Source: Aplysia californica (taxonomy: Eukaryota). From it: 64,000 bases of DNA. The stretch is from the NCBI RefSeq assembly GCF_000002075.1, contig NW_004797819.1, positions 24,245 to 88,244 of the forward strand, given 5' to 3'. Position 1 is the first letter of the stretch. Each line of letters begins with the position of its first letter. Below the pieces are notes generated by a model, which made no database searches, was not told where the DNA came from, and saw only the letters and a list, made by a program, of their open reading frames with translations. The position numbers were made by a program, and so were the translations under genes. Positions 1,681 through 20,382 of this stretch are shown piece after piece.

Positions 1681-3537
1681 AACTTTACCCCAAGCCCCGA
1701 CAGTGAGATAATTTCTGAGGGGAGTAAGCAGCTAGATGTTTTATCGTGTATCAAAGATGAGACTCCTGAAAGAATAGGTGACGGTGGGCCAGACTGCAGA
1801 CTGAATCAGTGCATCACTCCCATCCGTGGAACAGAAACTGATCAAAGCATAGATGAAATAAAGGGATGTCTGGCTGGGGAGCATGGGAACTTCACTTCCC
1901 CCCTTGCAGAAGGTGGCAACATCCCAGTTGCATTGAACGAGGAGAAAACCTGTCGGAACAAAGAAACAGCAGATGACGCTTCAAGAAGCAACCCTAGTGG
2001 AGATGATACAGGATCAGTTCATGATAAGAACCCTTCACGAAACCGTTCTAAAAGGTCTGAAGATTCTAATAACATAAAAAGAGATTGCCATATCAGCCCT
2101 GATCTGGCAAAGCTCCGCGCCTTGCCCGCCGAGGACCGGGACATAGTAGACGGGATTCGCCCATCGTGTAGCAAGACTAGGGCGGTTTCGGTGCTACCAG
2201 CCATTCATGAATCTGCGGACGAGGATGATGAGAACGTTGAGGAGCACGTCGGCATTTGTGTGTCGCCTTCTTCCTCCTCATCGTCTTCCCTTGCTTCCTC
2301 TCCCGTTTGCATAAAGCGCCATATCCCCGTGTGTCGTGTCAGTAGCAGACCCACACTGACCAGCATCTCTGAAGAGTTCGCTGCTACGAAAGTAATTGAG
2401 CTTGAAGGGGCGGAAGTAAGGAAGGATGAGGAAATGAGGGCTGTGAAAGAGAGCTCTTCCAACACAGAGAGTCTCACAAGGACGATCCCGCCAGATGCGC
2501 TGAGCAATGTGTTAGAACAAAGCCAGGGGGATTCTTCTTCAATTCCAAATGTGGAAGTGTTTCCTACTCGCATCAAGGAAGAGGAGGCCTGCCAAGAAGA
2601 GGGCCTGATTCCTCGTCAGATTTCCCCCACCGCCGGGGGTGAAGGCGTGGTGAGTTGCGATAAACAAAAAAGTCCCATAGTCGTTATGAATCCAGAGTTG
2701 ACACAACAGTCTGCTGGAAACATAGGTGGGGATTTGCACTGTGTAAAGACGGGTGTCGAGTTAAAAGAGAACGTCGAGATAAATAATAACGGTAGAGAGT
2801 ACAACCATGACGACAAAGTGCAGTACTCAGATGGACGCTGCCAGTCAGACTCAGAGAATTCTTATTCCCCCGTACGAAAAAGCCATAAGCCAGTGAAGTG
2901 GAAAAAAGGCAGACAAACTAAGGGAAATCACCAATTGTCGCCACAGGATGAGAAAGATGATTGCGTATCAGACAAAAGCGAATTCCCGGTAGGGGAGTGG
3001 AGTACCAAACAGATTTGTGATGAAAAATGTAATCTCCTTTCGAATATGTGCGTCGAATCGGGCACGCCAAACACAAACAACGAAGACCGTCCACATAATG
3101 ATATCCGATCCAGCCTTTCTGAAACAGGCGCGATGTCTGCCGATGCTGGGACAGAGACAAAGGCTATAGGAGAGGAAAGCTCCCTCCGAGACTACGTGGC
3201 ACAGAGGATCGAGGTAGCTGAGAGAAAACTTGGCAAACGGGGACTCGTGCAACTGTCGGACGTCATGCAGGCCGTTAACGAAGCCTGCGCGAGAGGAGGA
3301 GTTGCCCCGCCTGAAGACATCAGCGAGAGCGTCCTTGCCAATCTGGTGTATGGGAGAGGCAGGCTGGTAGAAGAAGGCGTGACTTCAGAGTGTGGTATCC
3401 ACGCTCAGAATAGTCAAGAGGCTTCCGGCCTAGAAAAGAAAGAGATCGTGTGCTGCCTCGGCGAGGAGCAGATTGTACCTTTGAATAATGTCTGTTTGGA
3501 AGCACCGAGTGCTTTAACAGTGTCGGATGACTGCAAG
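1681..3537 (+). CDS. Gene A large exon (1857 bp)
   Basis: Acceptor ttttcctgttccccag|AAC; donor AAG|gtgaaa; lies inside ORF 1495-3600; S/E/D-rich. Confidence 0.75.
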
Positions 3538-20099: not shown

Positions 20100-20382
20100 T
20101 AGAGATAGACAGAGACAAAGTTTTGACGAGCGTATAAAATTTACATTGTATCATGCTGCAACAAATGTCTCTTTGTGGAGATCAATAGACTGTCTTTTTA
20201 TCTATTGTATTATTTTTTCTTTCTTAATTCCAGGCAGTTCCCCACCGCGGGTGTCGCGCACACCAACAGGCACACTGCGGAGCAACGTGTCCGCCTCCAA
20301 GACTTACAGGCAGCTGTTCCAGGGCGAGGACTCCCAGCATCCCCGCTCGTCAGCCAAACGATGGCTTTGTCGTCTGATGTGA
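1681..20382 (+). CDS. Gene A (5'-partial): giant acidic low-complexity protein, >=3209 aa; exons 1681-3537, 5216-12185, 13085-13230, 13917-14013, 14967-15121, 17947-18202, 20234-20382
   Basis: All six junctions are GT-AG with matching phases (0,1,0,1,0,1). Exon sum is 9630 nt = 3210 codons including the stop. No recognisable folded domain; ends KRWLCRLM*. Confidence 0.75.
3836..4352 (+). mobile_element. tRNA-derived SINE family 1 (Meta/MESC-like core, I-group LINE tail), copy 1
   Basis: tRNA-Glu-like head with A box (tggcttagaggt) and B box (ggttcgaatcc); central …taagggcgaaaa…gttaaagatcc…; tail shared with the LINE at 15415; 11-bp TSD AATCTTTGAGA (3825-3835 / 4353-4363). Confidence 0.85.
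4855..4906. repeat. (CT)n microsatellite
   Basis: Direct inspection. Confidence 0.9.
5216..12185 (+). CDS. Gene A giant exon (6970 bp)
   Basis: Acceptor tttgattttctcaag|GAG, in frame with ORF 5489-12214 (frame is open from 5162); donor CCAG|gtaaac. Confidence 0.85.
12772..12879. repeat. (CA)n microsatellite
   Basis: Direct inspection. Confidence 0.95.
13085..13230 (+). CDS. Gene A exon
   Basis: ttcgcag|AT ... AAG|gtgagc; (D)GERAGQMVESFLT...WRKMKK. Confidence 0.7.
13917..14013 (+). CDS. Gene A exon
   Basis: ttttcttcag|TGC ... ATGG|gtaagc; CLAPQALNRRRARMRQPKSHKKDVLTLPGSLM. Confidence 0.7.
14190..14279. repeat. 30-bp tandem repeat x3
   Basis: TAAATATTCTTCCCACATTTATCAGCGCGT three times. Confidence 0.95.
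14967..15121 (+). CDS. Gene A exon
   Basis: gtttttcag|AT ... ATT|gtaagt; needed to restore phase between 14013 and 17947. Confidence 0.7.
15415..16055 (+). mobile_element. 5'-truncated I-group (Nimb/I-like) LINE, ORF2 C-terminus plus 3' UTR
   Basis: Open frame from 15415: NTLPRTDYRNKVKKYTSSLWKSYWEKQKNNKLYTIKP…SRRDKVVFTRLRIGYT…CVGCDTDFTIRHILTEC (CCHC knuckle)…YGKL* (15825). (TAC)n tail; 11-bp TSD TAACTATTTGG (15404-15414 / 16056-16066). Confidence 0.9.
17284..17785 (+). mobile_element. SINE family 1, copy 2
   Basis: Colinear with copy 1; immediately preceded by an inverted fragment of the same family (~17230-17278). Confidence 0.85.
17947..18202 (+). CDS. Gene A exon (contains RKRKKNRK)
   Basis: aatctttcag|AGT ... 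ACAG|gtaaaa; in frame with ORF 17965-18258. Confidence 0.7.
18253..19052. mobile_element. pogo/Tigger-like (Tc1/mariner) MITE
   Basis: TA|CAGTGAATTCCACTTATAATGAG … CTCGTTATAACAGGATTCCACTG|TA. Confidence 0.75.
19380..19570 (-). mobile_element. Short retroposon family 2 (~190 bp, no tRNA head, same LINE tail), copy 1
   Basis: Tail GCGCTCATATGACCTTATGCAGTTG…GCGCCGTAAAACC on the minus strand; 15-bp TSD ACATTTGAA(G/A)ACTTA (19365-19379 / 19571-19585). Confidence 0.75.
20035..20116. repeat. (GA)n microsatellite
   Basis: Direct inspection. Confidence 0.95.
20234..20382 (+). CDS. Gene A terminal coding exon
   Basis: ttcttaattccag|GC; GSSPPRVSRTPTG...KRWLCRLM*. Confidence 0.7.

What the first reader, a model, noticed from the sequence alone, without database searches (positions are those of the whole stretch)
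1681..20382. Orphan giant protein (>=3209 aa): acidic body, basic tail, NLS-like cluster and terminal CaaX box
Seen: the two huge exons are E/S/D-rich with no recognisable domain. The small 3' exons switch to K/R-rich sequence (RRRARMRQPKSHKK; RKRKKNRK at 18061-18084), and the protein ends KRWLCRLM* (CaaX, X=M). Established: X=M favours farnesylation, and NLS+CaaX directs lamins and Drosophila Kugelkern to the inner nuclear membrane. Inference: a lineage-specific, prenylated, disordered scaffold at the nuclear envelope or plasma membrane, possibly undescribed.
Basis: partly seen in the sequence, partly recalled or inferred. Interest (0 to 1): 0.7.

Follow-up and report, generated by a model that had tools for sequence, protein, structure and literature searches.

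The report
Giant lipid-anchored snail signalling scaffold
Spliced RNA joins two annotated 'unknown' sea-hare genes into one gene for a roughly 3,250-residue, predicted-unfolded protein; its few patches kept in other snails are a likely lipid-anchor signal at one end and predicted docking sites for a phosphatase (PP2A) and possibly a kinase (PKA) at the other, so it likely works as a very long membrane-tethered signalling scaffold.

Summary
RefSeq holds it as two uncharacterised Aplysia californica genes (LOC101862971, LOC101860840). Spliced contigs in 2 of 4 runs laid join 1681-3537, a missed 39-codon exon (4521-4637), the 7-kb exon and 13085-13230 into one transcript: 3248 aa from 1681. Four homologues were found (Lymnaea, Physella, Bulinus, one unnamed). 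C-x-x-M ends 3 of 4 (CRLM, CVVM, CTVM), so the CaaX is likely functional. In a spacer that varies from about 1,800 to 6,700 aa, the conserved islands are short motifs: two LxxIxE motifs (PP2A-B56 docking type; 3 of 3 homologues with an N-terminus), a helix in AKAP register (weak co-fold support with the PKA RI D/D dimer, 0.37 vs 0.02), and a basic Trp 1-4-7-8 helix like AKAP79's calmodulin site (4 of 4). Best reading: a farnesylated, disordered, tissue-restricted phospho-signalling scaffold. Plasma membrane versus inner nuclear membrane is unresolved. No binding, prenylation or localisation was measured, and the last four exons were not covered by reads.

The parts
1681..3537 (+). Large coding exon A (619 aa, acidic, mostly disordered); RefSeq treats it as a separate gene, LOC101862971
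   Evidence: ORF; P0002; spliced to 4521 in contigs of X1 and X7
2194..2211 (+). LxxIxE motif 1 (LPAIHE), predicted PP2A-B56 docking site, with basic residues upstream and S/acidic residues downstream
   Evidence: LPAIxE invariant in 3 of 3 homologues with an N-terminus
2356..2373 (+). LxxIxE motif 2 (LTSISE, followed by E), preceded by an invariant RVSS basophilic kinase-type site
   Evidence: LTSISEE and RVSS invariant in 3 of 3 homologues
4521..4637 (+).
   Evidence: joints 3537>4521 and 4637>5216; AF2 helix 2-29, pLDDT 84-93 in blocks; register; co-fold
5216..12185 (+). Giant exon (6970 nt, 2323 aa): acidic disordered spacer, poorly conserved in the middle, conserved at both ends
5285..5512 (+). 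Conserved Ser-rich then mixed-charge basic block (SGSDS ... PRES.SE ... KRKRDR); second NLS-like cluster
   Evidence: alignment A2; positions
5831..5842 (+). KRTS basophilic (PKA-type) site
   Evidence: RFGKRTS in Aplysia, P0003, P0006; absent from P0004 (2 of 3 homologues with this region)
12083..12184 (+). Conserved block at the end of the giant exon (T.S.P.P ... FP.D.PC.Y.P), function unassigned
   Evidence: 4 of 4 homologues
13085..13230 (+). Coding exon; ends in the first half of the basic Trp 1-4-7-8 helix (WRKMKK)
   Evidence: joint 12185>13085 in X1 and X7
13917..14013 (+). Coding exon; second half of the 1-4-7-8 helix (CL) and the RRRAR basic run
   Evidence: same as RefSeq model; homologue P0003; not covered by reads
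14967..15121 (+). Coding exon; basic, ends in conserved R.....R.S.E
   Evidence: not covered by reads
17947..18202 (+). Coding exon with the NLS-like cluster RKRKKNRK (18061-18084) and conserved VFE..C
   Evidence: not covered by reads
20234..20382 (+). Terminal coding exon ending K-R-W-L-C-R-L-M-stop; CaaX at 20368-20379
   Evidence: identical to RefSeq P0001; homologous end in P0003, P0005, P0006; not covered by reads

Best explanation
This is one spliced gene for a ~3,250-residue acidic, predicted-disordered protein that is likely farnesylated at its C-terminal CaaX, likely held on a membrane by that lipid plus its basic tail, and predicted to recruit PP2A-B56 through two LxxIxE motifs and possibly a PKA-type D/D domain through one helix, so it likely acts as a long-leash phospho-signalling scaffold. 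Shown: the transcript from 1681 to 13230, composition, motif conservation, 1,800-6,700-residue variation of the spacer, silence in one poly-A run. Inferred steps with my odds: farnesylation 0.85; B56 docking 0.7; D/D docking by the helix 0.35-0.4; calmodulin binding to the Trp 1-4-7-8 helix, releasing part of the basic tail from acidic lipids as proposed for AKAP79, 0.3; location on the cytoplasmic face of the plasma membrane 0.45, inner nuclear membrane 0.4, other 0.15. The acidic spacer would set reach, not sequence-specific binding.
For: Single contigs of 9341 nt (X1) and 10494 nt (X7) join four exons with GT..AG and no gaps. C-x-x-M with Trp two residues before the Cys and basic residues upstream in Aplysia and 3 of 4 homologues; X=Met selects farnesylation (PMC9141697, passage). 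The only two LxxIxE in the 3248 aa are the two kept in 3 of 3 homologues; they have the preferred L1, I4, E6, S/T/E at 2 or 7 and basic residues upstream, as described in PMC10970375 (passages); motif 1 differs by one residue from the LPTIHE core of the high-affinity B56 peptide in PMC7327492 (passage). The helix has F/Y at 1 and hydrophobic or small residues at 2, 5, 6, 9, 10, 13, 14, 17, the AKAP face given in PMC12083921 section 5, in 4 of 4 sequences (shuffle p 0.0007-0.0065, related sequences). Co-fold with the Aplysia RI D/D dimer: 0.37, best of 3 controls 0.02, verdict weak support; contacts agree at least 89%, partner pLDDT at least 62; the mark was reached by 51 of 78 solved complexes and 2 of 108 mismatches, but at 0.60 or under by only 5 of 78 solved and all 4 passing mismatches. 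One Trp 1-4-7-8 basic helix per protein in 5 of 5, 0.08-0.23 expected from shuffles, net +7 to +10; pattern defined for AKAP79 in PMC5698441 (passages). The genome holds B56 genes at two contigs and five D/D loci.
Against: All partners are inferred from short motifs; nothing was measured. LxxIxE is expected 0.8-2.0 times per protein by chance, so only conservation carries it. The helix has Ile, not the near-invariant Ala, at position 2 of the RI-type FA motif in 4 of 4; its 20-residue hydrophobic moment is low (0.09-0.18); my register pattern was written with the helix in view, and any amphipathic helix fits it; it also fits a class-1a export-signal pattern in 3 of 4. The co-fold pass is in the range the tool calls more often wrong than right, peptides are outside its calibration, and D/D-helix complexes are solved, so it may be from memory. 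PMC5698441 itself says 1-4-7-8 scans give many false positives. The Bulinus model P0004 has no CaaX. Only four homologues were found, one lacking the N-terminus. The last four exons were not covered by reads.
Confidence: 0.5

Rival explanations
1. Kugelkern-like nuclear-envelope protein: the basic cluster would act as an NLS, the farnesyl group would hold it on the inner nuclear membrane, the helix would oligomerise it, and its job would be nuclear shape; the LxxIxE motifs would only regulate it or nearby lamina proteins.
For: Basic cluster about 90-130 residues from the C-terminus in 5 of 5 proteins, close to Kuk's NLS at 440-447 of 570; Kuk needs a coiled coil plus CaaX, and NLS+CaaX alone reaches the nuclear membrane (PMC2947476, passages). 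A second NLS-like block near residue 750 is conserved.
Against: The cluster is conserved in charge, not sequence; it is one of several basic runs in a net +26 tail, and polybasic plus CaaX also means plasma membrane (PMC9141697). No lamin or other Pfam family matched. The helix fits an export-signal pattern in 3 of 4.
Confidence: 0.3
2. Two-point membrane tether: the hydrophobic helix would insert in one membrane (monotopic or spanning) and the farnesylated tail in another, the 2,300-residue spacer bridging them.
For: The helix is the only strongly hydrophobic 19-mer in Aplysia (KD 2.22, next 0.92) and in P0003 (2.08).
Against: Insertion cost rises from about 1.7 in Aplysia and P0003 to 5.0 in Physella and 10.1 in Bulinus (sum of a recalled biological scale); a true span would put the LxxIxE motifs and the CaaX on opposite sides, though both need the cytosol or nucleus.
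Confidence: 0.1
3. The acidic body is the function (entropic spacer, Ca2+/cation sink or condensate former in one tissue), anchored by the farnesyl group; the short motifs only time its phosphorylation or turnover, so it is a substrate, not a scaffold.
For: About 90% of the chain is predicted disordered; acidity is kept in all homologues although sequence is not; pN/pS about 0.55 on 27 listed differences.
Against: Spacer length varies 3.6-fold (1838-6717 aa), and two docking motifs, a helix and kinase sites are clustered in the first 900 residues, as in scaffolds.
Confidence: 0.1

Closest known systems
AKAP79/150 (AKAP5) and gravin (AKAP12)
   Same: Disordered scaffolds with polybasic membrane regions, a Trp 1-4-7-8 calmodulin motif followed by basic residues, a PKA-binding helix and (AKAP79) a phosphatase docking motif (PMC5698441 passages).
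   Different: No sequence homology found; AKAP79 uses palmitoylation and docks calcineurin, this protein has a CaaX and LxxIxE motifs; order is reversed (helix near the N-terminus, membrane end at the C-terminus); several times longer. AKAP79/150 is placed in tetrapods (PMC12083921 section 4), so any likeness is convergent.
mAKAP / AKAP6
   Same: Large scaffold that brings PKA and PP2A together at the nuclear envelope (PMC10988123, search listing and start of abstract only).
   Different: mAKAP is anchored by spectrin repeats binding nesprin (recalled); no spectrin repeat or homology here; a lipid anchor instead.
Drosophila Kugelkern and B-type lamins
   Same: Basic NLS-like cluster about 100-130 residues before a farnesylation-type CaaX; one helical element N-terminally (PMC2947476).
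   Different: No homology, no intermediate-filament rod or Ig fold; six times longer than Kuk; carries LxxIxE motifs.
LxxIxE scaffolds of PP2A-B56 (BubR1, liprin-alpha1 and others)
   Same: Optimal L1/I4/E6 motifs in disordered sequence with flanking acidic, phosphorylatable and basic residues.
   Different: Two motifs 42-54 residues apart in a prenylated giant protein; no shared domains.
RefSeq LOC101860840 (XP_005106724.2) and LOC101862971 (XP_005106734.1)
   Same: The same DNA; both 'uncharacterized protein'.
   Different: They are the two halves of one transcript; the annotated start in 4512-4637 and the annotated read-through end of exon A are not what the two contigs show.

Membership tests
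CaaX-prenylated proteins (FTase substrates) | Cys fourth from the C-terminus with aliphatic a2 and X = M/S/Q/A | tested here: met
   CRLM at 20368-20379; CRLM, CVVM, CTVM in 3 of 4 homologues; a1 is Arg, not aliphatic, in Aplysia and P0003
CaaX-prenylated proteins (FTase substrates) | The CaaX exon is the transcript's terminal coding exon | tested here: inconclusive
   Not covered by reads. Indirect: same as RefSeq; X7 contig runs 1282 nt past 13230, 657 needed; P0003 is one ORF on a 7784-nt contig ending in the homologous CRLM
CaaX-prenylated proteins (FTase substrates) | Prenyl group attached in cells | not testable with these tools
   needs labelling or mass spectrometry
PP2A-B56 interactors | Conserved [LMFI]xx[ILV]xE motif in a disordered region | tested here: met
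   two motifs, invariant L, I, E in 4 of 4 sequences with the N-terminus
PP2A-B56 interactors | Motif-dependent binding to B56 | not testable with these tools
AKAPs | 14-18-residue amphipathic helix, hydrophobic at 2, 5, 6, 9, 10, 13, 14, 17 | tested here: met
   4 of 4 sequences
AKAPs (RI-selective) | FA/YA motif at helix positions 1-2 | tested here: not met
   F/Y at 1 but Ile at 2 in 4 of 4
AKAPs | Binds the D/D domain of a PKA regulatory dimer | tested here: inconclusive
   co-fold with RI D/D 0.37 vs best control 0.02, weak support; RII and other D/D proteins not tested
Lamins | Intermediate-filament rod and Ig-like tail | tested here: not met
   no Pfam match; about 83% predicted disordered
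Kugelkern-like INM proteins | NLS + CaaX + coiled coil, located at the inner nuclear membrane | tested here: inconclusive
   basic cluster and CaaX present; one helix, coiled coil not tested; location not testable
Single-pass membrane proteins | A conserved insertable 19-residue span | tested here: not met
   marginal in Aplysia and P0003, unfavourable in Physella and Bulinus

The most novel reading that the evidence does not exclude
A gastropod-specific, independently evolved AKAP79-like hub built inside out: a farnesyl anchor and a calmodulin-switched basic tail at one end, PKA and two PP2A-B56 docking sites at the other, and between them an acidic leash of 1,800 to 6,700 residues whose length, set largely by one expandable giant exon in Aplysia, fixes how far from the membrane (plasma or inner nuclear) the kinase-phosphatase pair works.
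Probability: 0.22. Interest if true: 0.72.

Novelty: new variant of a known kind. Interest (0 to 1): 0.47.

Why it matters
If right, it is an undescribed invertebrate kinase/phosphatase scaffold in a classic cAMP-signalling model animal, with a combination (CaaX anchor, twin B56 motifs, AKAP-register helix, 1-4-7-8 helix) that my searches did not find in print, and a natural series of linker lengths for testing how far an anchored enzyme reaches. The family is also present in medically relevant freshwater snails (Bulinus, Lymnaea). At the least it corrects a split RefSeq annotation and gives four short, cheaply testable motifs in a protein that domain searches leave blank.

Tried and rejected
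Pfam on exons, whole proteins and the helix block: nothing above cut-off. PDB sequence searches with three alignments: 0 hits for the tail, 1 chance-level hit each (E 5.8 and 1) for helix and N-terminal block. ESM Atlas: no usable hit for exon A or the Lymnaea tail; not evidence of absence. Word-index searches found only the Aplysia RefSeq proteins; the profile search of longer proteins found none, not even the known 1036-aa homologue, so it is uninformative. AF2 of the tail: mean pLDDT 42.5, so no fold search was run. Candidate exons rejected: 14519-14764 (stop in frame); 16714-16776 (in frame, but absent from RefSeq and with no matching insertion in homologues; not excluded by reads); window 1-84 (phase does not fit exon A). 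Signal-peptide reading of RefSeq's start rejected: the hydrophobic exon is internal in both contigs and in 3 of 3 homologues. No paralogue in the own genome for two short probes. FFAT: none; RVxF and PxIxIT matches not at conserved positions. X8 (organism B) gave only short, near-identical pieces and no joints, so it tests neither splicing nor conservation. Earlier findings of the scan: none in 4 look-ups.
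Full report
1. Observation. The window is G000:C549:24245-88244; a 1310-base N run lies directly before it. Composition is as described: exon A 17% D+E, giant exon 19% D+E and net -207, last 267 aa net +26; FoldIndex% of the chain disordered. No Pfam family matches.

2. Gene structure. The giant exon matches RefSeq XP_005106724.2 (LOC101860840, Aplysia californica, 2632 aa), exon A matches XP_005106734.1 (LOC101862971, 646 aa). I laid 4 of the 24 listed runs on 1500-13250. 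In X1 and X7 one contig each (9341 and 10494 nt) covers 1681-3537, 4521-4637, 5216-12185 and 13085-13230, joined at GT..AG, with 17 and 26 differing letters and no gaps. These runs are only guessed to be RNA, but spliced joints show that they hold it. RefSeq's 7-codon start exon (MENEQNG, contig 22437) resembles the starts of two homologues and would give 3255 aa; reads did not cover it. X8 gave short pieces only. X20, 14.8 million poly-A reads, has depth 0 to 0.28 over the exon bins that hold no repeat, so the gene is silent in that sample; the tissue is unknown. Of 27 listed exonic differences 9 are silent, 18 change a residue, none makes a stop (pN/pS about 0.55; the table was cut, so this is a subset). 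The last four exons were not covered by reads; support there is RefSeq, the 1282 nt by which the X7 contig runs on (657 needed), and homologue P0003.

3. Homologues. phmmer of the last 305 aa over 1.84 billion representatives gave 5 hits at E up to 0.001: itself, P0003 (unnamed, 2571 aa on a 7784-nt contig), Bulinus truncatus (7465 aa), Lymnaea stagnalis (1036 aa, C-terminal part only) and Physella acuta (3566 aa). P0003, P0004 and P0006 share the whole order of blocks with the Aplysia protein, N-terminus to tail, which independently supports one gene. The spacer from helix to tail block is 2311, 1838, 6717 and 2714 aa. Against P0003, identity is 37-52% in the best 100-residue windows near the ends and 8-26% in the middle. 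All named hits are heterobranch gastropods (taxonomy recalled); the true range may be wider, since the searches are weak for such sequence (one search missed a known homologue).

4. What is conserved. (a) C-terminus: CRLM, CRLM, CVVM, CTVM, each with Trp two residues before the Cys and 3-6 basic residues in the 15 before it; Bulinus ends otherwise, possibly a wrong last exon, untested. Cys and Met each make up 1-4% of these tails, so keeping both while a1/a2 change is not chance. (b) Two LxxIxE motifs 42-54 residues apart, the only two in the Aplysia protein, invariant in 3 of 3 homologues with an N-terminus, the second preceded by invariant RVSS. They meet the preferences reported for B56 binding (PMC10970375, passages; PMC7327492, passages, which also reports that B56 prefers sites with basic residues upstream). 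(c) The missed exon: AF2 gives one helix, pLDDT 84-93, in an otherwise unfolded 159 aa. It fits the AKAP face of PMC12083921 (abstract, sections 4 and 5) in 4 of 4 sequences but has Ile where RI-selective AKAPs have Ala. Co-folding with the genome's own RI D/D exon (identified) scored 0.37 against a best control of 0.02: weak support, in the band where the tool's passes are more often wrong than right, and possibly from memory of solved D/D complexes. (d) A basic amphipathic helix with Trp and hydrophobics at 1-4-7-8, once per protein in 5 of 5, the pattern by which calmodulin binds AKAP79 (PMC5698441, passages). (e) Basic clusters near residue 750 and about 90-130 residues from the end, several kinase-type sites and two blocks without an assignment.

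5. Mechanism. Most likely the protein is farnesylated (X=Met; PMC9141697, passage), the lipid, the Trp and the basic tail hold the C-terminus on an acidic membrane, and the far N-terminal region docks PP2A-B56 and perhaps PKA or another D/D protein, with the acidic spacer as a leash of loosely constrained length. Calmodulin could loosen the basic helix from lipids, as proposed for AKAP79. Every one of these steps is inferred. Location is open: polybasic plus CaaX suggests plasma membrane; NLS plus CaaX at Kugelkern-like spacing suggests inner nuclear membrane (PMC2947476, passages). I put them at 0.45 and 0.4. A transmembrane reading of the helix is unlikely because it is not insertable in Physella or Bulinus and would separate motifs that need the same side.

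6. Known versus new. It works like AKAP79/gravin or mAKAP if the docking holds, and resembles Kugelkern at the tail, but is homologous to none as far as searched. It meets the sequence tests for a CaaX protein and a B56 interactor, fails those for a lamin and for an RI-selective FA-motif AKAP, and is undecided as an AKAP. Full-text searches for 7 identifiers found 0 papers; a search for AKAP with CaaX, prenylated and amphipathic helix gave 1 unrelated review; Aplysia-AKAP listings (12 of 42 seen, titles and abstract starts) showed nothing on this gene; PMC12203939 (passages) does not mention prenylation. Subscription papers and supplements were not searched.

7. Verdict. A real, mis-annotated, undescribed gastropod gene family. 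CaaX function is well supported by conservation, B56 docking fairly, PKA and calmodulin docking weakly. New variant of a known kind; interest 0.47.

Noticed in passing
window 28333-42017, minus strand: Neighbouring gene, tail to tail: ADP-dependent glucokinase family (PF04587) in at least five exon matches; a second copy lies on G000:C171.
   Followed up: partly
L007:517-1614 minus (G000:C1 near 4497400): An intronless, open 366-aa PKA type II regulatory-subunit-like gene (D/D plus two cNMP domains), beside four other D/D loci in the genome; looks like a retrocopy and is a candidate partner for the helix.
   Followed up: partly
window 3836-4359, 17284-17790, 36201-36659, 38430-38962: Copies of a ~500-nt interspersed repeat (73-81% alike), very abundant in RNA reads; SINE-like.
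   Followed up: no
window 15358-15825: 155-aa intronic ORF that looks like the end of a non-LTR retrotransposon protein (recalled resemblance; no Pfam hit).
   Followed up: partly
window 386-478 and 1040-1132: Identical 93-nt duplicate ending at the 100-N gap: probably an assembly overlap.
   Followed up: no
window ~8170-9160 (giant exon): A degenerate S-S-P-V-[DEH]-x-Y motif recurs at least 4 times in the spacer and 3 times in P0003, not in the three pond-snail proteins: trace of old internal duplications or proline-directed phosphosites.
   Followed up: partly
window 16714-16776: In-frame 63-nt stretch with plausible splice sites (21 aa); absent from RefSeq and homologues; could be a rare cassette exon.
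   Followed up: partly
window 1-84: GC-richer exon-like stretch with a GT donor at 85, cut off by the gap before the window; phase does not fit exon A.
   Followed up: partly
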